A DNA stretch of 64,000 bases from Promethearchaeota archaeon (GCA_048938105.1 JBHLMN010000012.1:32001-96000), one strand, 5' to 3'. Shown: positions 1,352-53,889, counted from the stretch's first letter. Notes: a model not told the origin generated them from the letters alone. Program-made: numbers and translations.

Positions 1352-1598
1352 AATTATTATTTAATCAACCATAAATGCCTTTCTAATCCTTCCTTATCAA
1401 TTATGTGGATATCCATCAAAACTTTATCCAATAGTCTTCTTTACAAATTTAAAATCAGAATATAAGTAGGATTTTTAAACTAAAATGAACTTTGAATTAA
1501 TAAATTCAATATATAATGGACTTTTTTCACTTCCTAAAAATAGTTTTTCAACAAATTTTTCTAAATTAGAATAGTACTGATGAAAATATATAGGTTGA

Positions 1599-1626
1599 AT
1601 GTCGCAAAAGGCTGGTATAGATAGCA
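1599..1626 (-). repeat. 28-bp dif-like site, copy 1
   Basis: Top strand ATGTCGCAAAA-GGCTGG-TATAGATAGCA; conserved arm plus CCAGCC spacer on the minus strand. Confidence 0.75.
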
Positions 1627-2296
1627 AAAATGCCTACTATACATCACCCCATTCTTCTATACTTGATTTTGGTTGAGAGCTCATCATAAAATAGAAGTAG
1701 TATAAATCCTGACTCCAAAGTTTTTGATAATTGGGAGAATGCAATCAAAATAAAGGCTAGAATTAATCAAATTGTATCAGAGTTTTGAATTAATATTAAG
1801 CCGAGAATACAAGGGAAACCACCGCTCCAACAAGAATTGTGGCAATTCCAGAGGCGCAAAGTATCGAATTTATGGAATACGTTGCTAATGCGACTGTGAA
1901 AGCATCAAATGACATTTTCAATACTCTTTTCATTTTTTTTGCTCCATGGATTCTTGTATTTCGGTGGCAGCATAAAGAAATGAGAGGACTTCTCATTTAC
2001 ACAAGCTCGTGAATTTTTCCTTCTTAAGAATCAGGAGCCTTGTGGTTTCCCGGATTCATCGAACCTGCCAAATATTCCAATTGTATTACTCCTAATAAAG
2101 GTTTGCACAAACATATTTCTGGTATGAAAGGTTATAACATAATCACTTGTACCGTCAAATATTATAAACACATTTATGTTCGAGTGATAATATTGCTACA
2201 AACAGAATCAAAAGAATATAAGAAAAAAGATGATTAAGATAAAGTAATACCTGTTTATTTAGACATTGGTTTCGAGAAAACAAATTTTACAAGTGA

Positions 2297-2324
2297 ATGT
2301 CGTCAAACCACCATTATCCCACTG
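2297..2324 (+). repeat. 28-bp dif-like site, copy 2
   Basis: ATGTCGTCAAA-CCACCA-TTATCCCACTG; left arm identical to copies 4 and 11. Confidence 0.65.
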
Positions 2325-2565
2325 TTTTATTATTACAACAATTGAAAAACATTGAGGAGGATTAAAAAAAGTTTCTCAGAATTCAAGTTCAATACTTATT
2401 TCTACCATGGTATTCCCATTGCAATAAAGAGAATTTTTCTTAGCCTTTTCAATATCTGCAATTACATCATTAGAAGGATGGGGGGAATATAAATCTGACG
2501 CAGATGCGAACACCTAATGTTTCGAAGGAAAAAAGGGAATTAATGAATATATTGTTTTACTTTTT

Positions 2566-2593
2566 TTTTCGTAAAAGTCTGGATTAGCACCTT
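2566..2593 (-). repeat. 28-bp dif-like site, copy 3
   Basis: Top strand TTTTCGTAAAA-GTCTGG-ATTAGCACCTT. Confidence 0.6.
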
Positions 2594-2693
2594 TGGAAAA
2601 TATTTAATGTCAATAATTGAATGATATTGTTTTACACTATTTTTACTAGCCATTATTCAGACAAATTCTTTTAATAAAACTTCTCTACAATTT

Positions 2694-5288
2694 TCATGTG
2701 TCAAAGACACCTTCTTTTATTTTTAGAGGATTTCCTACTAGGAGAAGTTTGACTTCCCCTTGATATTTCAAAGATTTCAGTGAATTTGGTATTTTTTTCA
2801 ACTTATTATAAGACAAATTTAATTGTTTGAGTCTATTTAGTTTCTTTATCGATTCTGGGACATCAATCAGTTGATTATATGATATATTTAAGTTCTGTAA
2901 TTTCTCGAGGTGGCCAATTGTTTCTGGTATGTGTTTTAATTGGTTGTTCCATAAATTTAAAGATTTTAGTTCGGTGAGGTGAGTGATTGTATCAGGTATC
3001 TGTGTTAGTTTGTTATCTGCTAGATCTAAGTTCTGTAATTCCTTGAGATGACCAATTGTTTCTGGTATGTGTGTCAGTCTGTTACTTGACAGATCTAAAT
3101 CTTTTAATTGAGTGAGACGGGTAATTGCGTCAATAAAATTGGTTAGTTGATTGTCTGATAAATTTAAAGATCTTAATTGTGTAAGATGGGTAATTGTGTC
3201 AGGTAAACTAGTCAATAAATTATCTGTGAAGTCCAGATCTTGTAAATGGGTATGTTGTTTTATTGTCTCTGGTATTTGTGTCAGTTGGAGATCAATTAAA
3301 TCTAGATCATAAAATTGATCCAGTTGGTCAGTCGATTCAGGTTGGTTAGTCCTTTGTTTATTTGATAGATCAATAGAAATCAAGTTTCCATTAGTATCAG
3401 GATAAAGATAATCAGAATACGGTGAAGATATATTGGAATTTGAAATTAATTCGAATAACAATTGAGGAATAATCCAACGGTTCTTTCCTGATTTAAGAAT
3501 GGTCCAAATCCATAACTCTTCCCAAATTTCTTTTGGATTTGTACGATTGAATTTTTTCTCTAAAAATTGGTTGGTTTTTTCTATTTCTATGTTTAAAATA
3601 TCTCTTGATCTCTTCAAAAGTGATGAATCGTCACATTGCTGGATAATACTCTTGTACCAATGAGCTAAATTAGTATGAGGAAAAATCCAGTGCTTGTTTT
3701 CCATTTTTCCAATAGATATCAAACCAATTATTCTTGCTATTCCACCTAATCTTTTCCTAATTCGTTTTTGGAGTTTTTTGCCTGGGATTCTGTCAAAATA
3801 CGATTGAACAATTGCTATACGAGCAAGTTCATAACCTATCTTGATAATAATTCGTTCTTGTTCACTAGTGTCGAATCGTTGAGTTTTTCTTTTGTTATAT
3901 TGCAGATAATGATTTATTGAGCTGTGTAAGGTACTCAACAGGATCTTTTCATATAACGTCTTTAAATGATCCAATGTTATTGTCTCATGACAAAACGGGT
4001 CATTTGTCTTGATGATTAGGTCTGACCAACTACTTAATGCCAATCTGGTCAAAACTAGATCGTTTTCTGTTAAACTAATGAAGTGTTTTCGTAATGCTTT
4101 ATAAGGAGGTAAATCCTGTAAATTTCTATCAACAATTGTTGCTTTAAGTAAGGCATCGCAAGACAAAAGAAAATGAAACTCTATTTTTGCATTTTCCATC
4201 CATTGATCTTCAATAAAAGGATTTTCTTCAAGTGGTCGTGATAGAAACCAGGTATGAATTTTTATTGTTTTGTTGTCTTGCTGATTTGCATTATATGATA
4301 AAGTATCACAGATTTTACTTATATTTTTCATAGTTCGGAATGGATCGGTTACCAAATGGAGATCATCCAACACAAAACATATAATTTGATGTTTATTCCA
4401 ATCTGCTTCTGCGATCAGTTTAATATCTTTTTCTAAGGTTTGACTCGTAATATAAGGATCGTCCCAAGTCTTTTCTTTGAATGAATAGTAAAAAGAGTTG
4501 AATTGAAATTCATCTGCCCCTAAATAACGATTCTTTGTTTCAAACATGACTTTACTGAAGGGCTGTTTACTTAAGTCTCTCTCATTCAAAAGATCCTCTA
4601 AAAATGCCATCATGCCTAATGCTTGACTAGTTTTTCCTCCTCCTGCTGATTCTGTTGTAAACGCGACTTGATAATTCGAAAAGGCCTCGATTAAGCGTTT
4701 AAACGCTTTTTCTGAAATTGGTGCCCAGCTTCTAAAATCTGTGAGTGTAACCCAAGGATATAATTCAGAAGTAGTTTTGTTCTTTATCCTAAATATTAAA
4801 GGTGTTTCTTTTAAGTATGATAGACTAAGCTTTGGGGATTTCTTCACTTTTTGCTTTATGGGAATATAATTCTCTGGTTTTAAGACTTCTAATATTGATA
4901 GAACTATCTGCTTCAATCCTTTTTCGGTTTTGATTGCGCTAAGATTAGCTAAAAATGGAGAATGGTGTAAAAAATCGTCACGTGATATTCCATGCCAGAT
5001 TGGCAAAATGAACTTACCCTCTTTGATTTGTCTTTGGATCAAACCATCTAGTTCATATTCAGGCCATTCTTTTGCAAAAAATGCTTGGCTAAAAACAACA
5101 ACGGCAAATCGTGATTTCTGAATTCCTTCGTCTATTTTTTTTCTTAAATTATCCCCGAGAGTTAAACTTATTTCATCATAAAAAACCTTTATTCCATGTA
5201 ATTCTAGATCTTTTGCTAATGGTTTTACAAGCTCCTCCTTGTCTTCAGAAGCATGACAGATAAATAGATCATATGTGAATTCAGACAT
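2694..5288 (-). CDS. TIR - P-loop NTPase (STAND-like) - leucine-rich repeat protein (NLR-like architecture)
   Basis: N-terminal TIR (YDLFICHASEDK...WPEYEL, catalytic Glu kept); variant Walker A ESAGGGKTS; Walker B CFVLDDLH; about 8 C-terminal 23-aa LRRs (LxxLxLxxNxLxxIPxxI). Confidence 0.85.
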   Translation of the reverse strand: MSEFTYDLFICHASEDKEELVKPLAKDLELHGIKVFYDEISLTLGDNLRKKIDEGIQKSRFAVVVFSQAFFAKEWPEYELDGLIQRQIKEGKFILPIWHGISRDDFLHHSPFLANLSAIKTEKGLKQIVLSILEVLKPENYIPIKQKVKKSPKLSLSYLKETPLIFRIKNKTTSELYPWVTLTDFRSWAPISEKAFKRLIEAFSNYQVAFTTESAGGGKTSQALGMMAFLEDLLNERDLSKQPFSKVMFETKNRYLGADEFQFNSFYYSFKEKTWDDPYITSQTLEKDIKLIAEADWNKHQIICFVLDDLHLVTDPFRTMKNISKICDTLSYNANQQDNKTIKIHTWFLSRPLEENPFIEDQWMENAKIEFHFLLSCDALLKATIVDRNLQDLPPYKALRKHFISLTENDLVLTRLALSSWSDLIIKTNDPFCHETITLDHLKTLYEKILLSTLHSSINHYLQYNKRKTQRFDTSEQERIIIKIGYELARIAIVQSYFDRIPGKKLQKRIRKRLGGIARIIGLISIGKMENKHWIFPHTNLAHWYKSIIQQCDDSSLLKRSRDILNIEIEKTNQFLEKKFNRTNPKEIWEELWIWTILKSGKNRWIIPQLLFELISNSNISSPYSDYLYPDTNGNLISIDLSNKQRTNQPESTDQLDQFYDLDLIDLQLTQIPETIKQHTHLQDLDFTDNLLTSLPDTITHLTQLRSLNLSDNQLTNFIDAITRLTQLKDLDLSSNRLTHIPETIGHLKELQNLDLADNKLTQIPDTITHLTELKSLNLWNNQLKHIPETIGHLEKLQNLNISYNQLIDVPESIKKLNRLKQLNLSYNKLKKIPNSLKSLKYQGEVKLLLVGNPLKIKEGVFDT
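2740..3310 (-). repeat. LRR-coding tandem repeats (69-bp period; approximate limits)
   Basis: Near-identical units such as HIPETIGHL (x2) and PDTITHLT (x2); DNA repeat CCAATTGTTTCTGGTATGTGT occurs twice. Confidence 0.85.
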
Positions 5289-5351: not shown

Positions 5352-6440
5352 TCATAAATCTTGCAAGAATTTATCCAGACTATGAAGCTCTGAAACCTCT
5401 AAAAGATTATTAGCTGTCATTGTATTTTGATATTGTTTCACATTCTTATAGAACCGTGGGATTGCACGCGAATGTTCTTTAAACTCTCCTTTTTTCATAT
5501 AACCAACGAAATAAATGTTGGTATCGTATATCCATATATTCTCCCAATCATTTTGAAGAATACATACTTTTTCTCGTGTTTTCCTCCTTACTTTAAAACC
5601 GAATTTTGGTTCAATAATCTCTCTAGGCATATCAGTTTCTGCTTTAATTGTTAAAGTTCCTTGAGGAATCATTCCATTAGGTACATGGACATAGAAAAGT
5701 TGAAAGAAACTGTTTTGCGTTTTAGATTTTGGAGGGTTGCCTTTTAAAATTACTTTTTCAAACATAAACTTTCTATAACTTGATGTTCCTCCGATTACGA
5801 TTTCTTTACTATGATCATCTTCGTTATTGGAGATGATAGTGATTCGACCGAGTTGGGATGGTCCATAGGCTTTTATGAACTTCTGAGGTTTCACCCATGC
5901 ATATTCCCAAAAGGAGTGTATAAAGTATTTTTTGTATCTACTTTCTTGGAATGAATCAAGGTCAATACAACCATTATCTGGAGTTAATTTACCAGTTACA
6001 AACGCAAAAATGTAGAAATCATCGTCTATCATTGATTTAGCTTTCAATTGATCTGATGGTACTAAAGCTGCACAATCTAGAAGCCATTTGGTAGATGAAG
6101 GAGATAAATCCCCAATATTCTTTGATTCTAGATAAGAAGAATCAAGATCTAGAAAAAATGATTTGATATCACATTTGTGAGTGTTTATAGTAAGACTATA
6201 ACGATCAACATCGTACCACTTGGTTCCCCTTTCTTTTTCATACATTACGTTTTTAGTTTCTAGTAACTCTTCAAAAGCAAGTTCAGGAATGATTCCCTTT
6301 ACAAGATTTTTCATCCGGTAATATGGATTTGCGCTTGACATTCTATTAAAGGTCGAGTTTAAAGCTTTTTCTGCATATTTTATACCTTGAAGTATCCATT
6401 TGTCTTTGGTTTCTATGTGTATTATATCTTCATCAAGCAT
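5352..6440 (-). CDS. Putative PD-(D/E)xK restriction-endonuclease-like protein
   Basis: KGIIPELAFEELL helix followed by D...CDIKS, resembling type II REase active sites; directly upstream of, and co-oriented with, the TIR-NTPase-LRR gene. Confidence 0.45.
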   Translation of the reverse strand: MLDEDIIHIETKDKWILQGIKYAEKALNSTFNRMSSANPYYRMKNLVKGIIPELAFEELLETKNVMYEKERGTKWYDVDRYSLTINTHKCDIKSFFLDLDSSYLESKNIGDLSPSSTKWLLDCAALVPSDQLKAKSMIDDDFYIFAFVTGKLTPDNGCIDLDSFQESRYKKYFIHSFWEYAWVKPQKFIKAYGPSQLGRITIISNNEDDHSKEIVIGGTSSYRKFMFEKVILKGNPPKSKTQNSFFQLFYVHVPNGMIPQGTLTIKAETDMPREIIEPKFGFKVRRKTREKVCILQNDWENIWIYDTNIYFVGYMKKGEFKEHSRAIPRFYKNVKQYQNTMTANNLLEVSELHSLDKFLQDL

Positions 6441-7003: not shown

Positions 7004-7981
7004 ATGGAATTGAGATATGTTATGTATCAAGACTATATTATTTATCTTCGTCAAGGAGCAGACCGATGGAATACTTGGCGTCATAAAAATCCTAGAATAA
7101 AACCTAATCTATCACGACAGATATTTCCTAAACTTGATTTGTCAGAATTTGACTTTTCTTACACCGATTTTTCCAACTCGAATCTTTCTGAATTGAACCT
7201 ATCAGAATCAGTGTTGTATAAAGCTAATTTTTCATATTCTGATCTTTCTAATACCGATCTTTCGAAAACAAGCCTATATTATACTACTTTTTTTCGAACT
7301 GATCTAAGGAATACTAATTTTTCTCTATCTAAACTACGTGGTACGAGTTTCACTTTCACTGATCTTAGTCAATCTAAATATTTAGATACAATCGAACATC
7401 AAGGTCCGAGCAGCATTGATATCTCTACTCTTCATCAGTCAAAAAAACTTCCTAAAAGCTTTTTACGGGGATTAGGAGTTCCTGAACTGTATATCAGGAA
7501 TCTTTCAGTATTTATTACACATGAATGGCAATTCTATACCTGTTTTATTTCCCATAGTAGTCATGATAAGGCTTTTGTACGAAAGCTTTATAATGCTCTT
7601 CAACATCAAGGAATCCGTTGTTGGTATGATAAAGAAGATGCTACATGGGGGAAAGAAATCAAACCGATTCTTAATGAAAAAATCGAAGAGTTTGACAAAG
7701 TTGTGGTTGTTTGCAGTGAAGATTCCCTCAAATCAGAATGGGTAAATCATGAGATTGAAAGAGCTTTGCAAAAGGAAGAAAAGAACCGAGAAATCGAATC
7801 TATACCTGAAATCTTATTCCCTATAATAATAGATAAGTCCCTCTCTAATTGGCTAAATCATCTAAAGAAGTTTGGAGTAGAACGTATTATCGGGGACTTC
7901 TATGATTGGAGGAGTCCAATAAAATTTAATCAGAGCCTCACACGATTGGTGCAGGCCTTAAAGAGTGATTCCCCACGATAA
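7004..7981 (+). CDS. Pentapeptide-repeat + C-terminal TIR protein
   Basis: WNTWRHKNP cap, (x)DLS/(x)NFS pentapeptide repeats, then TIR CFISHSSHDK...SEWVNHEI with catalytic Glu. Confidence 0.9.
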   Translation: MELRYVMYQDYIIYLRQGADRWNTWRHKNPRIKPNLSRQIFPKLDLSEFDFSYTDFSNSNLSELNLSESVLYKANFSYSDLSNTDLSKTSLYYTTFFRTDLRNTNFSLSKLRGTSFTFTDLSQSKYLDTIEHQGPSSIDISTLHQSKKLPKSFLRGLGVPELYIRNLSVFITHEWQFYTCFISHSSHDKAFVRKLYNALQHQGIRCWYDKEDATWGKEIKPILNEKIEEFDKVVVVCSEDSLKSEWVNHEIERALQKEEKNREIESIPEILFPIIIDKSLSNWLNHLKKFGVERIIGDFYDWRSPIKFNQSLTRLVQALKSDSPR

Positions 7982-8044
7982 TACAATAATGTAATCTAAC
8001 CCTAACTTGGATTTTATAAAACTATGATTTTCTTTATTACCTCC

Positions 8045-8458
8045 CTACTCATGATATGCAGTATATTGAAAAGCATGAGTTAAGGCTCTTCTTATATTTA
8101 TTCTGTCCCACTGAAAGATAGGAATACTCTTAGTCGAAATGAGGTGTGGTGGTACGAAGCGATTTGGAGTAACAACAATAGCTGCAATTCCGATATGTAG
8201 AGAACTCGCCACTGATAATTCATGGTCGACCCACTCACTTTGAAAGGTATTTTGTCCAAGTAAACAAACCAAAGCACGGCAGGGATTAATCAATTCATTG
8301 AGATATTTTCGCACTTCATCATACCCATATATTCTATAATCCTCTCGTGCTGAAATCGGGGTATGATTAAATTTGGCATTGGGATTTTGCATTAGTCCTT
8401 CAAATGCTTCTCGATAGTCTCGATCTTTTTCCTTATAACTAACGAAAACTTTTGCCAT
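8045..8458 (-). CDS. thsB: Thoeris ThsB-like TIR (MTH538/DUF1863 type)
   Basis: KVFVSY...LVCLLGQNTFQSEWVDHEL; stand-alone 137-aa TIR. Confidence 0.75.
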   Translation of the reverse strand: MAKVFVSYKEKDRDYREAFEGLMQNPNAKFNHTPISAREDYRIYGYDEVRKYLNELINPCRALVCLLGQNTFQSEWVDHELSVASSLHIGIAAIVVTPNRFVPPHLISTKSIPIFQWDRINIRRALTHAFQYTAYHE

Positions 8459-8665
8459 ATTTTCTACGCCAAAGTATTACTTAATTTCTAGTTAAGAAGG
8501 AATACATCATATACATGTTCGAAAAGTTTATTTATTATACTTATTAGATTCTTCCTAAAAATCCTTCAACGATTAATAGCACTATAAAGTAAAAAGGTTG
8601 AGGGAATTAAGTTATCCAAATAAAGAATCAAAATTGTGTTATCAATAAAAACATGGGGAAGTTAA

Positions 8666-9202
8666 ATGACTAAGCGACACAAAGTATTTTTATGTTTTCA
8701 TCATGAAAATGATGAGAACTATAAGAACCAATTCGAGCAAAAATTTGGTAGTTTGTATGTATCAAAATCAGTGGAGATAGGAGACATTGATCCTAATTTA
8801 AAAACAGAAACAATAAGACGTAAGATAAGAGATGAATATTTAAGAGATTCAACTGTAACAGTTGTTCTTGTTGGCAAAGAAACATGGAAAAGAAAACATG
8901 TGGATTGGGAAATTTCTTCTAGTATTCGACATACTCAATACAATCCTAGATCTGGTCTCCTAGGACTTATTCTGCCCACACATCCAAATTTTTCTACAGA
9001 AACATATGATCCGCATATCATTCCTCCACGATTATATGATAATATTGAATGTGGATTTGCTAAAATTTATAATTGGACCGATGATGTTTCAACAATTGAA
9101 CAGCGTATCCATGACGCTTTTCAACGTAAGGATAAAATTCTACCAGACAATTCAAGATTACTCTTCAAGAATAACCGCTCTGGGGATAAATGGCAAGATT
9201 GA
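8666..9202 (+). CDS. thsB: Thoeris ThsB-like TIR (MTH538/DUF1863 type)
   Basis: HKVFLCFHH...DSTVTVVLVGKETWKRKHVDWEI...GLLGLILP...PPRL. Confidence 0.85.
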   Translation: MTKRHKVFLCFHHENDENYKNQFEQKFGSLYVSKSVEIGDIDPNLKTETIRRKIRDEYLRDSTVTVVLVGKETWKRKHVDWEISSSIRHTQYNPRSGLLGLILPTHPNFSTETYDPHIIPPRLYDNIECGFAKIYNWTDDVSTIEQRIHDAFQRKDKILPDNSRLLFKNNRSGDKWQD

Positions 9203-9332
9203 AAAAACAAATTTTCCAATTAGAACTAATCTCAGTTTAAATTCGTCTTTTTCCTTAGTATCATTTAAAAAGAGAAATTTAGCTCCTCTTGGAACAGAAA
9301 ACCTTTTCTCATATTTAAATGAGGAGTTTATT

Positions 9333-9863
9333 ATGCCAAAAGTAAAAGAGGTTACTGTTAATATCGGAGTTAAGGATGTTTTTTCAATAAGTGGTACTTT
9401 TGTTCCAAACAAAAATGAAGAAGAGGCTGCCTGGGAATTATATGTAGAATTGATAACCCGAATCACAGTTGTTAAGCTAAAAAAAGACAAAGGTTTTCTG
9501 AGAGAAGCATTAAATTCTTATCATAGTTTATTTAAGACAACAAGGGGAATTATGCGGGAAAAAGGCCCAGATTTAGCAAGACCCAAATCAAGTAGTAAAA
9601 TTACACTTGGTTTAATAGCTGTTTCAGTTTTAAATTATGTTTTAAGGCCATTGCTGACAGAATGGCACCCAATTTTAGAAGATTATGAATCGACACGTCC
9701 AAAAAACCTTTCACGAAAAGCTCATGAAGATAAATGGGAAAACAACAAAGACCTAAGAGATAAAATTGCTGAGACTAGAGAAACTTTACTACATTATGCC
9801 CAGCTACTTGCTGATATTGCAAAAGTTGAACCAATCCACATTGTTCCAGCTCCTCTTACCTAG
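9333..9863 (+). CDS. Conserved helical hypothetical protein downstream of thsB
   Basis: ATG at 9333 preceded by GAGGAG; motifs AAWELYVELITR, LREALNSYHSLF, LRPLLTEWHP. The ORF-track start at 9006 overlaps thsB and is unlikely. Confidence 0.75.
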   Translation: MPKVKEVTVNIGVKDVFSISGTFVPNKNEEEAAWELYVELITRITVVKLKKDKGFLREALNSYHSLFKTTRGIMREKGPDLARPKSSSKITLGLIAVSVLNYVLRPLLTEWHPILEDYESTRPKNLSRKAHEDKWENNKDLRDKIAETRETLLHYAQLLADIAKVEPIHIVPAPLT

Positions 9864-10006
9864 AGGGATTAAGAAGTTCCAGTGTTGAAATTATTTCAAA
9901 TTGATAAACATCCACATTGCGAATTGTTGGTTCTCATTCATGTAATTTATAACAGCTCATATCTAATTACAAATAATCTGTACAACTATGGAATTTTTTT
10001 TCTCAA

Positions 10007-10034
10007 ATGTCGTCAAACCAGCCTGAGAGAAGCT
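10007..10034 (+). repeat. 28-bp dif-like site, copy 4
   Basis: ATGTCGTCAAA-CCAGCC-TGAGAGAAGCT, between two convergent gene ends. Confidence 0.75.
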
Positions 10035-10081: not shown

Positions 10082-10339
10082 CTACCCTCTAGAGACTCCT
10101 AGCTCATCTAACAAGTTAACAAAGTCCAAAACACTCATCTCAGCAATGGAAGCGGCACCTTCATAAAGTCGAAATTCAACAAATAATTTAATTGCCTCAA
10201 TCTGCTTTTTAGTACATTTATTCTTAATTAAATCCCAATTAACTGATTTTCGCCTTTCTTCTTTCGCCTCCTTCTCCCAAGCTTCAAAGTTTTCCATATA
10301 TTCTTCTGCCAATTTTCTTGCATTACTCATGATTACCAT
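10082..10339 (-). CDS. UPF0175-like small HTH protein, putative antitoxin
   Basis: C-terminal GAASIAEMSVLDFVNLLDELGV pattern; overlaps the PIN gene. Confidence 0.6.
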   Translation of the reverse strand: MVIMSNARKLAEEYMENFEAWEKEAKEERRKSVNWDLIKNKCTKKQIEAIKLFVEFRLYEGAASIAEMSVLDFVNLLDELGVSRG

Positions 10340-10823
10340 ACCTTTGTTTTATACGAAAAAGATCTTTGGTTGAGTAAGTGCCAAGGAGTTTATCAAAAAA
10401 ATCTATTTTAATCTTACCCAATTCTAATAATCGAGTAAAGAAATAAGTACCTCTGAATATTTTGACTTCGGAATATTCTTGATGATGTTTTCGTATATAC
10501 CAGGGGGCAAAATTATCACTAATAACGAGGAAATATCCCCGCGATAGAGACAGAACTAATGTTTCAATTTCACTAACATGTTTTCCAGCATATTGAGAGG
10601 AAAATTCTTCATGTAATACATTGAATCTTTCTCTTTCAGCTGTTGTCAATTCTTCTTTCGTCATACAATTCAATTTCTCTAAATCACGATGAAATTGAAA
10701 AGATTCCTTCCATACTTCTGGAGAAATTAATATTTCATCAAAAACATCACAAAGATACTTTATAACTTCCAATCTCTTTAGATTAACTAGAAAAGAAGTA
10801 TCTAGCACCGTTTTTTCTTTCAT
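10323..10823 (-). CDS. PIN-domain (VapC/DUF3368-like) ribonuclease toxin
   Basis: VLDTSFL, ISPEVWKE, SEIETL, VISDN acidic PIN motifs. Confidence 0.8.
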   Translation of the reverse strand: MKEKTVLDTSFLVNLKRLEVIKYLCDVFDEILISPEVWKESFQFHRDLEKLNCMTKEELTTAERERFNVLHEEFSSQYAGKHVSEIETLVLSLSRGYFLVISDNFAPWYIRKHHQEYSEVKIFRGTYFFTRLLELGKIKIDFFDKLLGTYSTKDLFRIKQRYGNHE

Positions 10824-10955: not shown

Positions 10956-11065
10956 TTAGTTTAAAAATGATATTTCAATAGTAATGTCTCTTGATCCCTT
11001 GGAAATTGCATCCCTGTTTCCTTATATTATAAAATAAGGAGAAAAATCATTTTAGACTATATTCA

Positions 11066-14000
11066 TTAATTTAAATACTCAGATTTTTTAATGATTATAA
11101 TTTCTTCTTTCTTATAATCAATTTCAATAGTTAATTTATTTTTTATCTTTATTACACTATAAATTAAATCTAGAAATTCGAGAGTCTCTTCAATATACCA
11201 CTTTGGTTTTAATTGCTTATCTAATATTAAATTTGGTTGAAGTAGTTTTTCCAATCTTAAAATTGAGGTTTCATTTTCATATATTTGAATATCTTGTAAA
11301 TTAGATAAAATGTGTGAATTCCATGGACAGGGGATTTTTTCAGAAAAGACATAGAAATAAAACTGATCTAATCTCTCAACAAGTTCAAGTATATCTGATG
11401 TCCATGGGTTTAGATTTCTACCCATTAATATAACACGTTTTTCGATATTATCGCATAATTCCTCAATAATTTTTAGAAATTCAATTTTTTGTTCTGTTTT
11501 CACTGTATTGAGGAATTTAATAATTCTAAAATAGTCTCGCAAATCTAAATTTGCTAATATTTCTCTCTCATCAATATTTGGAATAGGAATATAACTTTCA
11601 AAGCTTTTTAGTCTTTTATTTAAATCTTGAGGTAATCCTCGTCTCCATTTATTATCTCCAAACAATATTCTTGTATAATTAAAAATAAAATTCTTTAATT
11701 TTTCTTCAAGAATGACTTTAATTTTGTTAATCGCTAAATCAAAATTATTACTTTCTACATTTCTCCTGATATCATTGAGAAGAATTTTATCCTCTCTCCA
11801 AATTCCCTTTCCCTTCAATGAAAACCAAATATCCCACTGTACAAACCTTTTTAATCTTGAAACCAAGTCCTTAATTGTTGACAAGTAATCTGAAATTAAT
11901 CTAGTTTTATCATCTAAAGAAGGACTTATTTTTAACATAAAAGATTTTAATAATTTTGCAAAATACGTGACTACTTCCAATTCATACCAAGAATTTTCAT
12001 GAAATTCTAATGCTTCTTCGTAATTCTGTACTTCGGAATCACATTGAATTACATAAGCCATTAAGAGCGAAGAAAATGATTCTTGAATTATTTCAACATT
12101 AAATTTCGCTAATGATGATTCTTTGGCAATTCGTAATGATTTGGAGAATTGATATACTTCTTTATACCCTCTGGCTGCACTGACTAATTTTTCAATAAAA
12201 GCACTTCCATATTCTTCTCCCCTCTTAATTGTATTCTCAAGGGCTAGTAATACTTCATCTTCATATTCTTCGGGTATTTCTTTAACAAAGTAAAGAGATG
12301 GAATAATATTGACAGGATTTACACTATAGATATGGTTTATTTTATTGAAATAGTCATTACAATTTTCATTTATAGTCCATGATGGTTCCTGATCCGTTTC
12401 TTTCTTTATTAACAGTCCAACGGAGAAAAGATGAATAATTAATTCTCTGTTCTTAAGAAAATCGTAACTTCCCTCAATAATCGGATCACTCAACCATATA
12501 TCTTCTAAAACTTTAATTAATCGTTCAAATGTATCACGATTTGATTCTGTTCTCGTTTTAAGTTCTTGAAAAGCCTTATGTAATTGGTTATGGCTTCTTT
12601 CAATATCTTTTCTTGCATTTCTTATTTCAACATCATCTTCTCTTATTGTTATTGAATCTTCTGTAAATTCCAATCGTTTAAATCTCTTGATAAGAATTTC
12701 AATATAATCACGAAAAGTCTTGATCGGACGACCAGGATGTTTTTCCATTTTGGACAATCTAACTAAGTAATCTCTTGTGATAGAAGGAGCATTCTCGACC
12801 TCAATTGAAAATACTTTGAGTCTATGATTTATCATTGCTAAAGCTTCATCAATAGTAACTGAAGACATTGGATGATAATCATCAACACTCCCAGATATTG
12901 ATCTATCTCCCTTTATTCTCTGCGAAAGCTCATCAATCGCAGAAAAAAAGAAAGAAGTAGAGATTTCATGAGAAAAATCTTTTCTATAAATTTGAAGAGA
13001 TGTTATAAATCCAATAATCTCTTCCATATACTCTCCAATACTTGAATGCTTGTAGATATCTTCAATGAAAATTATTAATGCCTTTTTAACCGTTGATAAG
13101 GTTTTAAGCATAATAAGGCAATCTTCTTCAGGATCTATTTCTTCTGGAGTATAATCAAATTCATTTTGATGTACTTTTTTCAAGTGTGAACGTAATTTTA
13201 CGAAAAATTTTCTCTTTATTTCAACTACTCGCTCTCTTGCGTCTAAAGAAAAGATTATCACAATTGTATCATTATAATGCAGATTGATTAATCGATTCAT
13301 ATATTGAAATAATGTTGTTTTTCCAGATCCAAAAGCACCGTAAACACACATTGTTATGTTCTTAATGGAGGAAAAATTCCTTAGAATCGCATGTTTGAAT
13401 TGGTTTATCGAATTTGTTGGATAGATTATTTCATCATAGTATTCAGGATTAATATTACTTAATCCATCTTTAGATGGAAAAGGATTTTCTTTCAAACCAA
13501 GCCGTTTATACCAATCTAAATATTCAATGTTATCCTCGACTTCTTCTGAGGGAAGAGGAGGAAGGAATTCAACAGGACGATCTTTATATCGTTCTATAAC
13601 TGAGGCACTTCTCTTTCTATATTTTTCGAGTTCTTTAGTCATTGTAGATAATTCTTTTTGTAATTCAATTAATTTAATATCCTTTCTACGTCTTGAAAGA
13701 TGATCCTGAATGCTCTCTTCTCGTGATTCAAAGTATCTTTCATTATAATAATCTAATATTCGATTATGATAATACTGAATTTGTTTTAAAAGAAAAATTT
13801 CTTTCAAAGCTTCATATAATTTTTCAAAATTGATAATTAAATCCTTTGAAATTAAATATTTCAGAAAATTTAAAGCAAAATCCTCAATATTAAGGCTAGA
13901 AACAGATTTCATTTGCTTTCTAATTGTTATCAATTCTTCTTTTGAGTTCGCTCTTGTAATCTTCTTTTGATTTCTATAAAAAAAGATTTCTAATTCTTTT

Positions 14001-15013
14001 GTGATTTCATAATCCTTTAGAGGATCAGAAATTTCTTCAGAAATTTCTTTCTCTCTATAAGGTAAGCTAAACCTTATGATACCATCTTTCCTTGCTTCTG
14101 GAGAAACTGAAGTATCACTTGGGCAAAAATTAAGGCCTCTTTCAGTATGAAAATAAGAATGAATCCCTCTAGCGGTATATGGATCATAATCAAGAATAGA
14201 GAATCTATACCTATATTTTTCTGGATTCCTCTTTTCAGGTAAATAAAGTGTCCCCATAATGAATGTTATATATTCTCTTTCTCTAGAAATTTCTTTTTTT
14301 ATATAAGAATCAGGATAATGCTCATGGCCAACAACTACTATATCAAAACTTTTCCCAATTTTCATTTCTAAGTTGCGACGATTGTTAGGATATAAGCAAT
14401 GAGGGGGATGGTGTTGTACTAAAATAGACAAATTAAAATCATTTTTATCTTTAAAGGTATCTTTGATACCGTCAATATGAATAAAGGATGGCAATTTATC
14501 TTGGGCTAAAGAATTTGCTAAACATGAATTGAGCGATGTGATATTTATCTTGAATTTACTAATATCTACGGTTTTAGTGTAACCAAAAATTGAGTGTTTT
14601 TCGCATAAAAATCGTTCTTGAAATCTGATATAATTACTGAAGGCGTTATCTACATGAACTTTAAAATCAGAGGAGGAGAAAATTTCTTCAAATTTCATAC
14701 TATTTGGTGTTTCTATATATTTAAAAGCTGTACCTAATGAATCACGGTTATAGTCATGATTTCCAGGTGTAAAGAAGAATCTAGAGCTATCAATATTAAG
14801 ACTGTGTCTTAATCTTTCAAAAAAGAGTAACGCCTTATCATATTGATCAACTTTCCCTTCTGATGTAATGTCTCCTGGTACAACGACTAAGTCAACTCTA
14901 TTTTCAGCTACAATCATTTGATCAAAATGGTTAATAATTTTATCGAAAATTCTGTCTTGTAGATTATCATTACTAACCATATGAAGATCTGAAAAGATAG
15001 CTATTGTAACCAA
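11066..15013 (-). CDS. Calcineurin-like metallophosphoesterase fused to a P-loop ATPase with a long helical C-terminus
   Basis: All five MPE motifs (SDLH, PGDIT, PGNHD, QHHP, GHEH); LGLKENPF; Walker A GAFGSGKTT; Walker B IIFIED. Confidence 0.85.
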   Translation of the reverse strand: MVTIAIFSDLHMVSNDNLQDRIFDKIINHFDQMIVAENRVDLVVVPGDITSEGKVDQYDKALLFFERLRHSLNIDSSRFFFTPGNHDYNRDSLGTAFKYIETPNSMKFEEIFSSSDFKVHVDNAFSNYIRFQERFLCEKHSIFGYTKTVDISKFKINITSLNSCLANSLAQDKLPSFIHIDGIKDTFKDKNDFNLSILVQHHPPHCLYPNNRRNLEMKIGKSFDIVVVGHEHYPDSYIKKEISREREYITFIMGTLYLPEKRNPEKYRYRFSILDYDPYTARGIHSYFHTERGLNFCPSDTSVSPEARKDGIIRFSLPYREKEISEEISDPLKDYEITKELEIFFYRNQKKITRANSKEELITIRKQMKSVSSLNIEDFALNFLKYLISKDLIINFEKLYEALKEIFLLKQIQYYHNRILDYYNERYFESREESIQDHLSRRRKDIKLIELQKELSTMTKELEKYRKRSASVIERYKDRPVEFLPPLPSEEVEDNIEYLDWYKRLGLKENPFPSKDGLSNINPEYYDEIIYPTNSINQFKHAILRNFSSIKNITMCVYGAFGSGKTTLFQYMNRLINLHYNDTIVIIFSLDARERVVEIKRKFFVKLRSHLKKVHQNEFDYTPEEIDPEEDCLIMLKTLSTVKKALIIFIEDIYKHSSIGEYMEEIIGFITSLQIYRKDFSHEISTSFFFSAIDELSQRIKGDRSISGSVDDYHPMSSVTIDEALAMINHRLKVFSIEVENAPSITRDYLVRLSKMEKHPGRPIKTFRDYIEILIKRFKRLEFTEDSITIREDDVEIRNARKDIERSHNQLHKAFQELKTRTESNRDTFERLIKVLEDIWLSDPIIEGSYDFLKNRELIIHLFSVGLLIKKETDQEPSWTINENCNDYFNKINHIYSVNPVNIIPSLYFVKEIPEEYEDEVLLALENTIKRGEEYGSAFIEKLVSAARGYKEVYQFSKSLRIAKESSLAKFNVEIIQESFSSLLMAYVIQCDSEVQNYEEALEFHENSWYELEVVTYFAKLLKSFMLKISPSLDDKTRLISDYLSTIKDLVSRLKRFVQWDIWFSLKGKGIWREDKILLNDIRRNVESNNFDLAINKIKVILEEKLKNFIFNYTRILFGDNKWRRGLPQDLNKRLKSFESYIPIPNIDEREILANLDLRDYFRIIKFLNTVKTEQKIEFLKIIEELCDNIEKRVILMGRNLNPWTSDILELVERLDQFYFYVFSEKIPCPWNSHILSNLQDIQIYENETSILRLEKLLQPNLILDKQLKPKWYIEETLEFLDLIYSVIKIKNKLTIEIDYKKEEIIIIKKSEYLN

Positions 15014-51677: not shown

Positions 51678-51685
51678 ATTTAAGT

Positions 51686-53884: not shown

Positions 53885-53889
53885 CAATT

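What the first reader, a model, noticed from the sequence alone, without database searches (positions are those of the whole stretch)
2694..5288. TIR-NTPase-LRR protein: plant TNL-like domain order in a probable archaeon
Seen: a catalytic-Glu TIR, a central P-loop domain (ESAGGGKTS, hhhhDD Walker B as in NB-ARC/NACHT) and about 8 LRRs. Established: prokaryotic STAND/Avs receptors usually use TPR or WD40 sensors, whereas TIR-NB-LRR is the plant immune-receptor layout. Inference: this is a virus-sensing NADase or signal generator, and either a convergent or an evolutionarily informative NLR-like protein. The first Walker A residue is non-canonical.
Basis: partly seen in the sequence, partly recalled or inferred. 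Interest (0 to 1): 0.8.

Follow-up and report, generated by a model that had tools for sequence, protein, structure and literature searches.

The report
Asgard archaeal TIR-NTPase-LRR immune-type sensor
An Asgard (Hodarchaeales) archaeon carries an intact gene built like a plant TIR-NLR immune receptor, with an NAD-cleaving TIR head, an ATP-switch middle and a leucine-rich-repeat tail; it is most likely a shuffled, recently gained antiviral sensor of a known prokaryotic kind and not an ancestor of the plant receptors.

Summary
Window 2694-5288 (minus strand) is one intact 864-aa ORF.

- **TIR head:** residues 4-130 match the AbTir/TcpB/PdTIR family (PDB E 2e-38), and the catalytic Glu is kept (E79).
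- **LRR tail:** nine 23-residue repeats in perfect register (656-862).
- **Centre (140-650):** a complete sequence orphan. It has no Pfam, PADLOC or PDB hit and no relative among 1.84 billion cluster representatives or in 59 related genomes. It does carry four STAND/NACHT-type motifs in canonical order and spacing: Walker A, hhhhDD Walker B, an SRP sensor-1 motif and an F.H winged-helix motif. None of 20,000 shuffles reproduced this. The ESM Atlas places it with NACHT/NPHP3_N/nSTAND3 by features and with MalT-type STAND/AAA+ by its own model. My two AlphaFold runs failed, so no structure of mine supports the STAND assignment.

The host is archaeal: the genome has an archaeal 16S, and a protein encoded elsewhere on the contig is 82-91% identical to proteins of Hodarchaeum/Hodarchaeota MAGs. 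The gene lies in a 7.7-kb four-TIR module of a defence island.

A recognisable TIR-NACHT-LRR protein exists in another genome of the same class, and bacterial TIR-NLR and LRR-bearing bNACHT proteins are published. I therefore read this as a new member of a known kind that resembles plant TNLs by convergence. This scan has noted related Asgard NLR-like genes on other DNA. Interest is moderate.

The parts
2694..5288 (-). Whole gene, 864 aa (P0001): TIR, divergent NOD-like NTPase, LRR. Stop codon at 2694-2696.
   Evidence: The ORF is intact, GC is uniform across the three parts (0.32-0.33), and no TM segment is present.
4878..5288 (-). TIR domain, residues 1-137, AbTir/TcpB/PdTIR type.
   Evidence: Pfam TIR_2 2.4e-19; PADLOC PDC-S66 1e-54 and ThsB1 1e-30, on the TIR part only; PDB 7UWG E 2.3e-38.
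5052..5054 (-). Codon of Glu79, the predicted catalytic glutamate of the TIR NADase (motif WPEYEL).
   Evidence: It aligns with the conserved Glu of Y-E-L-D-G in AbTir and its relatives. That this Glu is the catalytic residue comes from established knowledge of TIR NADases.
3639..4721 (-). Residues about 190-550: predicted nucleotide-binding/oligomerisation module (NBD, helical lid, winged helix). It has no detectable sequence relatives.
   Evidence: Only itself was found among 1.84e9 representatives. No Pfam, PADLOC or PDB hit. ESM Atlas: features 0.94 to NACHT/NPHP3_N, and its own model has TM 0.56-0.66 to MalT-STAND/Cdc6/AAA+. Motifs are collinear.
4626..4652 (-). Walker A, ESAGGGKTS (213-221); GK[ST] kept, first Gly replaced by Glu.
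   Evidence: aligned to the P-loop of NB-ARC, Orc1/Cdc6 and Asgard NACHT alignments by hhalign.
4356..4379 (-). Walker B, CFVLDDLH (304-311), hhhhDD.
   Evidence: aligned by hhalign to IVLDDV of plant NB-ARC and to the Walker B column of Asgard NACHT proteins.
4233..4250 (-). Sensor-1-like motif WFLSRP (347-352), of the hhh[ST]RP type found in NACHT.
   Evidence: aligned to the T.R column of Asgard NACHT proteins. P0157 has LILTTRP at the matching spacing.
3654..3689 (-). Winged-helix-type motif WIFPHTNLAHWY (534-545), with the conserved His (H538).
   Evidence: aligned to y.f.H..l.EY of Asgard NACHT proteins. Compare FNHKSFAEYY in P0157, and FSHRSIMEY and FAHKSFQEY in L073 and L074.
3327..3638 (-). 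Residues 551-654: helical spacer between the NOD and the LRRs, of unknown family.
   Evidence: No family hit. The whole centre's nearest Atlas models are MalT-like STANDs with a helical arm.
2697..3326 (-). LRR domain, residues 655-864: nine 23-residue repeats (LxxLxxLxLxxNxLxxIPxxIxx). Predicted ligand sensor.
   Evidence: Pfam LRR_8 2.1e-27 and LRR_14 1.5e-20; register shown; 35-41% identical LRR paralogues on seven other contigs of the genome.
5352..6440 (-). Upstream co-oriented gene (P0002, 362 aa), 63 bp from the start of P0001. Orphan, soluble. A possible operon partner; not shown to belong to the system.
   Evidence: No Pfam, PADLOC, NCBIfam or PDB hit. Not found in 25 relatives, plasmids, or metagenome and viral contigs. 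AF2 failed.
2296..2313 (+). Left copy of an 18-nt direct repeat (AATGTCGTCAAACCA..) bounding the 7.7-kb four-TIR module.
   Evidence: 2 matches in the window at up to 3 mismatches, against 0.03 expected by chance.
10006..10023 (+). Right copy of the same repeat, with a CCAGCC core.
   Evidence: The link to the dif-like cassette sites noted elsewhere in this genome is only a lead.

Best explanation
P0001 is a single-chain, cytoplasmic, NLR-like (STAND-type) immune sensor of a Hodarchaeales archaeon. The proposed mechanism is inferred by analogy with Avs, bNACHT, TIR-NLR and plant TNL proteins:
1. The nine C-terminal LRRs hold the protein in an autoinhibited state until they bind an invader-derived ligand, probably a viral protein.
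2. Binding lets the central P-loop module exchange or bind nucleotide and oligomerise.
3. Oligomerisation brings the N-terminal AbTir-type TIR domains together, which builds their composite active sites around Glu79.
4. NAD+ is then cleaved or cyclised. That either starves the infected cell (abortive infection) or makes a cADPR-type signal.

What is shown: the three-part anatomy, the TIR family and its catalytic Glu, the LRR array, the four NTPase/WHD motifs, the archaeal host and the defence-island setting.

What is inferred: the STAND fold of the centre, ligand sensing, oligomerisation, NADase activity and the antiviral role.

In evolutionary terms it is a shuffled, accessory, probably recently acquired gene. 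Its likeness to plant TNLs is convergent.
For: Anatomy.

Centre as a STAND-type switch:
- Walker A (K218), hhhhDD (D308, D309), SRP (R350) and F.H (H538) are collinear, with spacings of 90, 42 and 188 residues. These are close to those of the Pfam-recognised TIR-NACHT-LRR protein P0157.
- hhalign aligns all four motifs at once to eight Asgard NACHT modules.
- 0 of 20,000 P-loop-preserving shuffles reproduce the motif set (the patterns were chosen post hoc).
- ESM Atlas features score 0.94 to NACHT/NPHP3_N/AAA_22/nSTAND3. The Atlas's own model has TM 0.56-0.66 to MalT-type STAND, Cdc6 and AAA+ for residues 185-450, and about 0.5 to MalT-like STANDs over residues 142-648.

Modular kin in the same class:
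- TIR-NACHT-LRR.
- Mrr-NACHT-pentapeptide and SIR2-NACHT-pentapeptide-WD40.

Defence setting:
- Three more TIR genes, an AAA_15/21 ATPase, NurA-HerA, a PDC-S60-like phosphoesterase, an SF1 helicase with PLD, and a PAPS-reductase/SMC-like/cysteine-desulfurase group that I read as Dnd-like.

Precedent:
- TIR-NLR defends E. coli (PMC9122126).
- bNACHT proteins with TIR effectors, and others with LRR sensors (10.1101/2022.07.19.500537).
- Rst TIR-NLR is enriched in Asgard genomes (PMC11291487).
Against: - No HMM, profile-profile or PDB sequence match supports the centre beyond the P-loop and Walker B. hhalign probabilities are 2-18%, and it scores about as well against Orc1/Cdc6 as against NB-ARC.
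- The NBD plus lid alone fits Cdc6/AAA+ models as well as STAND models.
- My AlphaFold model of the centre is unusable (pLDDT 35), so the fold evidence rests on the Atlas's moderate-confidence language-model structure (whole-protein pLDDT 0.58).
- Walker A lacks its first Gly.
- The gene is a singleton: one protein, one contig, one sequencing run. No conservation, co-variation or expression data back its function.
- The motif patterns were defined after I had seen the sequence.
Confidence: 0.68

Rival explanations
1. Signal-relay system. P0001 is the sensor and signal generator: its TIR makes a cADPR-type messenger. The killing is done by a separate effector in the same 7.7-kb module, either the orphan upstream gene P0002 or the 176-aa orphan at 9333-9863. 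This would be analogous to Thoeris (ThsB to ThsA) or to the plant TNL-to-EDS1 pathway.
For: P0002 lies 63 bp upstream on the same strand. The gap before P0001 holds a Shine-Dalgarno-like AAGGT and no well-placed promoter. P0001's central region and P0002 are both orphans, and neither was found in the relatives searched, which is consistent with arrival as one unit. AbTir-family TIRs are known (from my own knowledge) to make cADPR isomers. The module holds four TIR genes and no recognisable ThsA-type effector. An 18-nt direct repeat bounds it.
Against: P0002 matches no family, structure or relative, and its AF2 model failed. Nothing therefore marks it as a ligand-gated effector. Many TIR-STAND proteins act alone by NAD+ depletion. 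Adjacency alone is weak evidence.
Confidence: 0.13
2. The centre is a degenerate or non-switching P-loop scaffold, or an Orc1/Cdc6-like AAA+ module and not a STAND. The protein would then act as a TIR-LRR adaptor or enzyme whose activation needs no nucleotide cycle.
For: Walker A is non-canonical, with E at the first Gly position. No STAND HMM is matched. The hhalign score against Orc1/Cdc6 (26.8) is close to that against NB-ARC (29.0). The best single Atlas TM for residues 185-447 is to a Cdc6-type cluster (0.66). TIR-LRR proteins without an NTPase exist in bacteria (PMC7145615).
Against: GK[ST], hhhhDD, the sensor-1 Arg and the WHD His are all retained. Walker B is DD, not the DE seen in all 24 Orc1/Cdc6 sequences. 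Recognised Asgard NACHT proteins show the same first-position deviation. Atlas feature neighbours are STAND families. Over the whole centre, the nearest models are MalT-type STANDs with a WHD and arm.
Confidence: 0.08
3. It is not an antiviral gene. It could instead be a signalling, self/non-self-recognition or programmed-death regulator, of the kind proposed for NLR-like proteins of multicellular prokaryotes and fungi.
For: The genome has many LRR proteins. Prokaryotic NLR-like proteins are linked to multicellular lifestyles in the literature (10.1101/2020.01.06.895854; PMC7159879).
Against: The gene sits in a dense defence island. It is strain-specific and not conserved across the genus. Its TIR is of the NADase type with the catalytic Glu. 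These are all hallmarks of fast-turnover antiviral genes.
Confidence: 0.06
4. It is a vertical relic: a descendant of an Asgard TIR-NOD-LRR that gave rise to eukaryotic (plant-type) TNL receptors.
For: It has the same domain order as plant TNLs. The Walker A and B positions nearly coincide with those of a plant TNL (213/303 against 216/293). The host belongs to the archaeal group closest to eukaryotes.
Against: The TIR is far closer to bacterial AbTir/TcpB (E 2e-38) than to plant TNL TIRs (1e-6 to 1e-4). There is no NB-ARC match, and the SRP and F.H motifs are NACHT-like. No C-JID or post-LRR domain is present. The gene was not found in 59 relatives, 20 of them in the same genus. NB-ARC was seen in only 2 of 150 genomes of the phylum. 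The other TIR-NACHT-LRR of the class shares only 30% identity in the TIR, 37% in the LRR and nothing alignable in the NOD.
Confidence: 0.03

Closest known systems
Bacterial NLR-related NACHT proteins (bNACHT; Kibby et al., read as bioRxiv 10.1101/2022.07.19.500537), especially the LRR-bearing bNACHT16 and the TIR-headed clades
   Same: Tripartite design: N-terminal effector (TIR is one listed option), central NOD, C-terminal repeat sensor (LRR is one listed option). The protein is a single-gene defence system in a defence-island setting. It has an SRP sensor-1 motif and an F.H winged-helix motif of the NACHT type.
   Different: P0001 does not reach the Pfam NACHT or NPHP3_N threshold and matches no PADLOC model with its centre. 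Walker B is DD, not DG.DE. The host is an Asgard archaeon. I could not confirm from the text that the exact triple TIR-NACHT-LRR is described there.
TIR-NACHT-LRR protein P0157 of another Heimdall-class genome
   Same: Same domain order in the same archaeal class. Walker A is non-Gly at its first position (ASAGTGKS). The spacing of Walker A, Walker B, sensor 1 and the WHD His is nearly the same.
   Different: Its NOD passes the Pfam NACHT cut-off (30.8 bits against 26.7), which P0001's does not. Identity is only 30% in the TIR and 37% in the LRR, and BLAST finds no alignment in the NOD. Its LRRs are more numerous and lack the regular 23-residue IP..I pattern.
TIR-NLR (Rst_TIR-NLR) single-gene defence system of P4-like satellites (Rousset et al. 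2022, PMC9122126; PADLOC PDLC03015)
   Same: A TIR effector fused to an NLR-like NTPase in one protein. That system is experimentally protective against phages. It is reported as enriched in Asgard genomes (PMC11291487).
   Different: P0001 does not hit the TIR-NLR model at E <= 0.1. That model did appear for the neighbouring pentapeptide-TIR gene, through its TIR only.
Plant TIR-NB-ARC-LRR receptors (TNLs such as Roq1, RPP1, RUN1/RPV1)
   Same: The domain order TIR / P-loop NTPase / LRR. The TIR has the catalytic Glu. Walker A and B sit at almost the same distance from the N-terminus. The presumed logic is the same: ligand-induced oligomerisation switches on the TIR NADase.
   Different: NB-ARC membership fails: no RNBS-B TTR, GLPL or MHD motif was recognised. 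No C-JID or post-LRR domain is present. The TIR is only distantly similar (E 1e-6 to 1e-4). The LRRs are the 23-residue bacterial/Roco-like type.
AbTir / TcpB (BtpA) / PdTIR bacterial TIR NADases (PDB 7UWG, 8G83, 4LZP, 4LQC, 3H16)
   Same: The TIR domain (residues 4-130) matches at E 2e-38 to 2e-32, with the catalytic Glu conserved.
   Different: Those proteins pair the TIR with a coiled-coil or short N-terminal region, with no NTPase and no LRR. Here the TIR is N-terminal to a switch and a sensor.

Membership tests
TIR domain NADases (Pfam PF13676/PF01582) | HMM score above the curated cut-off | tested here: met
   TIR_2 70.4 bits (cut-off 28) and TIR 52.7 bits (cut-off 21.3).
TIR domain NADases (Pfam PF13676/PF01582) | Catalytic glutamate conserved | tested here: met
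   E79 aligns with the Glu of YELDG in AbTir and its relatives. Its catalytic role is known from the literature and was not assayed here.
Leucine-rich repeat (Pfam PF13855 and related) | HMM above the cut-off, and tandem LxxLxLxxN units | tested here: met
   LRR_8 95.1 bits (cut-off 27); nine 23-residue units in register.
STAND-class NTPases (NOD: NBD, helical domain, winged helix) | Walker A GxxxxGK[ST] | tested here: inconclusive
   ESAGGGKTS: GK[ST] is present but the first Gly is Glu. The same position is non-Gly in recognised Asgard NACHT proteins.
STAND-class NTPases (NOD: NBD, helical domain, winged helix) | Walker B hhhhD[D/G/E], with a second acidic residue | tested here: met
   CFVLDD at 304-309, aligned to the NB-ARC and NACHT Walker B by hhalign.
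STAND-class NTPases (NOD: NBD, helical domain, winged helix) | Sensor-1 arginine, and a winged-helix His contacting the nucleotide | tested here: inconclusive
   The motifs WFLSRP (347-352) and WIFPHTNLAHWY (534-545) lie at the expected spacing and align to these columns. This is evidence at motif level only; no structure supports it.
STAND-class NTPases (NOD: NBD, helical domain, winged helix) | NOD fold | tested here: inconclusive
   My AF2 model failed (pLDDT 35). The ESM Atlas's own model has TM 0.56-0.66 to STAND and AAA+ clusters for residues 185-450, and about 0.5 to MalT-type STANDs for 142-648.
Pfam NACHT (PF05729), NPHP3_N (PF24883), NB-ARC (PF00931), nSTAND families | HMM score above the gathering cut-off | tested here: not met
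   None of these families hits the centre even at E <= 10. hhalign to 117 plant NB-ARCs gives probability 11-18%, and to eight Asgard NACHT modules 1.9%.
PADLOC TIR-NLR (PDLC03015), Avs and bNACHT models | Match to the system's HMM | tested here: not met
   PADLOC hits cover only the TIR domain: PDC-S66, ThsB, RT-TIR and others. The centre alone gives no hit at E <= 10.
Plant TNL receptors | NB-ARC with RNBS-B, GLPL and MHD motifs, plus a C-JID/post-LRR domain | tested here: not met
   No NB-ARC match. After Walker B the hhalign alignment to the TNL consensus (GSRIIITTR) falls out of register. No post-LRR domain fits: the protein ends 2 residues after LRR 9.
Thoeris | ThsB-type TIR protein together with a ThsA (SIR2/Macro-SLOG) effector | tested here: not met
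   ThsB-like scores arise from the TIR domain only. No ThsA-like gene was recognised in the module.

The most novel reading that the evidence does not exclude
The 7.7-kb repeat-bounded module is an undescribed archaeal signal-relay immune system. An NLR-type TIR-NOD-LRR sensor would make a cADPR-like messenger that is read by an orphan effector (P0002 or the 176-aa protein). That would be an Asgard counterpart of the two-tier TNL-to-EDS1 or Thoeris logic, built around a NOD family with no detectable sequence relatives.
Probability: 0.12. Interest if true: 0.75.

Novelty: new member of a known kind. Interest (0 to 1): 0.45.

Why it matters
The gene shows that the full TIR / nucleotide switch / LRR receptor layout, usually taught as the plant TNL design, is assembled independently in Asgard archaea. 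I found it twice in the Heimdall class, with unrelated-looking switches. That supports the view that NLR-type receptors are a modular, repeatedly re-invented solution and not a lineage-specific invention. It also argues against reading such Asgard genes as eukaryotic ancestors.

In practical terms the gene offers three things:
- a compact (864 aa), soluble, LRR-based prokaryotic sensor that could be used to study LRR-mediated ligand recognition coupled to TIR activation;
- a NOD so divergent that no sequence method tried here detects relatives, which makes it a useful hard case for remote-homology and structure-prediction tools;
- a candidate for finding what Hodarchaeales viruses present to host immunity.

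Tried and rejected
**The centre of P0001 (residues 140-650)**
1. Sequence homology led nowhere. phmmer against 1.84e9 representatives found only the protein itself. The word-indexed search at E <= 10 also found only itself. Pfam, PADLOC and PHROGs at relaxed E gave nothing beyond a chance-level ORC1_wHTH hit at 0.03-0.09. The PDB sequence search gave nothing. Six-frame searches of 59 relatives gave nothing.
2. AlphaFold2 in single-sequence mode failed for the centre (pLDDT 35). No fold search was run on this model because the matches would be meaningless. I did not feed AlphaFold an alignment of known STAND proteins, because the result would have been circular.
3. Profile-profile comparison of the single sequence gave only P-loop and Walker B signal at low probability, and did not separate STAND from AAA+. 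The targets were 117 plant NB-ARCs, 24 Orc1/Cdc6 proteins and 8 Asgard NACHT modules.
4. Collecting STAND families from Asgard genomes was unproductive. Most 'NACHT' hits were Orc1/Cdc6. NB-ARC was seen in 2 of 150 genomes and NPHP3_N in 3 of 82.

**The neighbour P0002**
5. No family, PDB, plasmid, metagenome-contig or viral-contig relative was found, and it was not found in 25 relatives. Its AF2 model failed (pLDDT 29.5). I noticed a possible D...D-I-K (PD-(D/E)xK-like) motif by eye but could not test it, so I make no claim.

6. The first genome-contig scan, with P0001 as query, returned nothing.
8. Complex prediction was not used. I had no specific binding hypothesis, and both proteins lack alignments.

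**Readings rejected**
9. The inverted repeat 2538-2570 / 11039-11071 is at chance level for this AT-rich DNA.
10. The long TIR ORFs in G020 and G037 are not the same architecture. Judging from the coordinates, their TIR is C-terminal.


Full report

Yes. Window 2694-5288 on the minus strand is one uninterrupted ORF of 864 codons that starts at an ATG.

- **TIR.** Pfam places a TIR domain at the N-terminus: TIR_2 at 70.4 bits against a cut-off of 28, and TIR at 52.7 bits. The C-terminus carries leucine-rich repeats: LRR_8 at 95.1 bits against a cut-off of 27, with LRR_14, LRR_4 and LRR_1 also matching.
- **TIR family.** Against solved structures, residues 4-130 match AbTir of Acinetobacter (7UWG, 8G83) at E 2e-38. 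They match TcpB/BtpA and PdTIR at about 1e-32. Plant TNL TIRs (Roq1, RPV1, L6, RUN1) match only at 1e-6 to 1e-4.
- **Catalytic residue.** The Glu in WPEYEL (E79) aligns with the conserved Glu of Y-E-L-D-G in these NADases.
- **LRRs.** The tail is nine 23-residue units in exact register from 656 to 862. The first and last units are degenerate.
- **Localisation.** Neither this protein nor its upstream neighbour has a hydrophobic stretch long enough for a membrane helix.

**2. Is the host an archaeon, and is the contig sound?**

- The window is C63:32001-96000 of a 5.85-Mb, 65-contig assembly with 99% completeness and 7% contamination.
- The assembly's single SSU rRNA scores 1319 bits on the archaeal model and 1013 on the bacterial one.
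- C63 (205 kb) correlates at 0.998 with the genome-wide tetranucleotide profile. The window region is somewhat AT-richer, as accessory islands often are.
- DNA from C63:100-120 kb recurs at 75-94% identity, in pieces, in 19 of 19 same-genus genomes.
- A 585-aa protein encoded there is 82-91% identical to proteins of 'Candidatus Hodarchaeum mangrovi', 'Candidatus Hodarchaeota archaeon' and 'Promethearchaeota archaeon' MAGs.
- A Logan assembly of run SRR30758825, probably made from the same sample, gives a 21.9-kb contig that is 100% identical over 20,209 bases around the gene.
- GC and GC3 are uniform across the TIR, central and LRR coding parts.

The refuting condition 'non-archaeal or chimeric contig' is therefore not met. 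The host is a Hodarchaeales (Heimdall-group Asgard) archaeon, which agrees with earlier notes of this scan.

**3. What is the central region?**

This is the crux, and the evidence is mixed.

*Negative evidence.* Residues 140-650 have no detectable sequence relative.
- phmmer against 1.84 billion representatives returned only the protein itself.
- A word-indexed search at E <= 10 did the same.
- Six-frame searches of 59 related genomes, 20 of them in the same genus, found nothing.
- Pfam, PADLOC and PHROGs at relaxed thresholds, and the PDB sequence search, found nothing relevant.
- hhalign of the single sequence against 117 plant TNL NB-ARC modules, 24 Asgard Orc1/Cdc6 proteins and eight Asgard NACHT modules gave probabilities of only 2-18%. 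With the P-loop held fixed, the real sequence beat the shuffles only modestly: 29.0 against 21.4 +/- 4.0 for NB-ARC, and 26.8 against 19.6 +/- 4.1 for Orc1/Cdc6.
- AlphaFold2 without an alignment failed (pLDDT 35).

*Positive evidence.*
- The sequence carries four motifs of a STAND/NACHT-type NOD in the right order. These are Walker A (GKT, K218), Walker B hhhhDD (D308, D309), a sensor-1-type hhh-S-R-P motif (R350) and a winged-helix-type F-x-H-x-x-h-x-x-aromatic motif (H538).
- hhalign in extended mode aligned all four at once to the corresponding columns of the Asgard NACHT alignment.
- The spacings between the motifs are 90, 42 and 188 residues. They closely match those of P0157, a Pfam-recognised TIR-NACHT-LRR protein of the same archaeal class, whose motifs are ASAGTGKS, IAIIFDG, LILTTRP and FNHKSFAEYY.
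- In 20,000 shuffles that kept the P-loop, none had Walker B and sensor 1 in their windows together, let alone all three added motifs. I chose the patterns after seeing the sequence. The number therefore overstates significance, but by far less than the margin observed.
- The ESM Atlas holds this protein. By language-model features, residues 185-450 are nearest to NACHT/NPHP3_N, AAA_22 and nSTAND3/NB-ARC clusters (0.92-0.94). The Atlas's own model superposes on MalT-type STAND, Cdc6, DnaA, RFC and AAA clusters at TM 0.56-0.66. The whole centre (142-648) is nearest to MalT-type STANDs, with a winged helix and helical arm, at TM about 0.5.
- Walker B is DD. All 24 Orc1/Cdc6 sequences collected here have DE.
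- The odd first residue of Walker A is shared by recognised Asgard NACHT proteins.

I conclude, with roughly 85% confidence, that the centre is a highly divergent STAND-type NOD. It is NACHT-like in its sensor-1 and WHD motifs and NB-ARC-like only in its DD Walker B. It cannot be filed in any existing family.

**4. Surroundings**

The gene lies in a defence island.
- P0002, a 362-aa orphan, ends 63 bp upstream of P0001 on the same strand. The gap holds an SD-like AAGGT and no well-placed promoter.
- Further along are a pentapeptide-TIR gene (7004-7981, +), a 137-aa TIR gene (8045-8458, -), a ThsB-like 178-aa TIR gene (8666-9202, +) and a 176-aa orphan (9333-9863, +). No ThsA-like effector is recognisable.
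- An 18-nt sequence, AATGTCGTCAAACCA.., occurs in the same orientation at 2296 and 10006. Chance expectation is 0.03. The two copies bracket exactly this four-TIR block. Earlier notes of this scan describe dif-like cassette sites with a CCAGCC core in this genome, and the right-hand copy has that core. I did not pursue this further.
- Flanking the block are an AAA_15/21 ATPase, NurA-HerA and a PIN/antitoxin pair. A 1315-aa calcineurin-like phosphoesterase (PDC-S60-like) follows.
- Further on lie an SF1 helicase with PLD, a HerA-nuclease fusion, and a PAPS-reductase/SMC-like/cysteine-desulfurase group that I read as Dnd-like.

**5. Relatives by architecture**

- A TIR_2 search of the 82 genomes of the class found one other N-terminal-TIR long ORF. 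This is P0157 (G043, 1102 aa), with TIR 4-123, NACHT 244-373 (30.8 bits against a cut-off of 26.7) and LRRs 674-1014.
- P0157's NOD has three weak relatives in 399 genomes of the phylum. Two were scanned against Pfam: Mrr(REase)-NACHT-pentapeptide in the same genus as this genome, and SIR2-NACHT-pentapeptide-WD40.
- This is the classic mix-and-match of effector, NOD and repeat sensor.
- P0001 and P0157 share 30% identity in the TIR, 37% in the LRR and nothing alignable in the NOD. The two TIR-NOD-LRR proteins look independently assembled or extremely diverged.
- The best whole-protein hits of P0001 are bacterial or metagenomic TIR proteins, about 50% identical over the TIR only. None of them has a P-loop.
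- The LRRs are 35-41% identical to LRR proteins elsewhere in this genome.

**6. Mechanism**

The best-supported model is an NLR-like single-chain sensor. The LRRs bind an invader-derived ligand. The NOD then binds nucleotide and oligomerises. The clustered AbTir-type TIR domains become active NADases through Glu79. NAD+ loss, or a cADPR-type product, stops the infection.

Every step after the anatomy is inference from Avs, bNACHT, TIR-NLR and TNL precedents. The main rival, at about 13%, is a relay in which a separate orphan effector in the module reads the TIR product. Lesser rivals are a non-switching scaffold, a non-defence role, and vertical ancestry to plant TNLs. I rate the last at about 3%, for the reasons given in sections 1, 3 and 5.

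**7. Comparison with what is known, and novelty**

- Exceptions are published. bNACHT16 has LRRs, and bNACHT clades carry TIR effectors (10.1101/2022.07.19.500537). TIR-NLR is a validated single-gene defence system (PMC9122126). 'Rst TIR-NLR' is reported as over-represented in Asgard genomes (PMC11291487). TIR-NB and TIR-LRR proteins are noted in bacteria (PMC7145615).
- This scan has also noted NACHT-LRR and TIR-STAND-HEAT genes in other Asgard genomes (I did not check these).
- P0001 is therefore a new member of a known kind. Its particular points are the exact TNL-like triple in a Hodarchaeales archaeon, an LRR sensor, and a NOD with no detectable sequence kin.

**8. Verdict**

The function is inferred, not shown. 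Interest is moderate (0.45).

Noticed in passing
window 2296-2313 and 10006-10023 (+): Two same-orientation copies of an 18-nt sequence (AATGTCGTCAAACCA..; the right copy has a CCAGCC core) bracket the 7.7-kb block that holds all four TIR genes. Chance expectation is 0.03 matches. This may be one of the dif/Xer-like cassette joints that other notes of this scan describe in this genome.
   Followed up: partly
window 7004-9863: Three more TIR genes lie next to the finding: pentapeptide-TIR (325 aa), a 137-aa TIR and a 178-aa ThsB-like TIR. A 176-aa orphan follows. No ThsA-type effector is recognisable.
   Followed up: partly
window 5352-6440 (-): P0002, a 362-aa soluble orphan directly upstream of the TIR-NTPase-LRR gene. 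It has no family, PDB, plasmid, metagenome or relative-genome match, and its AF2 model failed. A D...D-I-K stretch near residues 77-93 could be a PD-(D/E)xK-like motif; this was not tested.
   Followed up: partly
window 1352-2693: A 1.3-kb stretch with no ORF of 80 aa or more (one 37-aa gene was called in the Logan record) lies between the LRR gene's stop and the AAA_15/21 ATPase gene. It contains the left repeat copy.
   Followed up: no
window 11066-15013 (-): A 1315-aa protein with an N-terminal calcineurin-like phosphoesterase domain (PADLOC PDC-S60 8e-23). It is probably another single-gene defence candidate.
   Followed up: no
window 10082-10823 (-): A small pair of genes: a 166-aa PIN-like protein (weak DUF3368 hit) and an 85-aa ORF. 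This is probably a toxin-antitoxin pair, and it sits just beyond the right repeat copy.
   Followed up: no
L069:494-3802 (-) = G043:C40: A 1102-aa TIR-NACHT-LRR protein (P0157) in another Heimdall-class genome. Its NOD relatives are Mrr-NACHT-pentapeptide (L073, same genus as this genome) and SIR2-NACHT-pentapeptide-WD40 (L074).
   Followed up: partly
L001 (G000:C9:1695-3919): The 16S rRNA match spans 2225 bases for a 1478-position model, which implies an insertion or intron of about 750 bases in the SSU rRNA gene.
   Followed up: no
window 47920-55125: An SMC-like ATPase, a PAPS-reductase/4Fe-4S protein, a methyltransferase-domain protein and a class-V aminotransferase lie in a row. This looks like a Dnd-type DNA-modification/defence cluster.
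   Followed up: no
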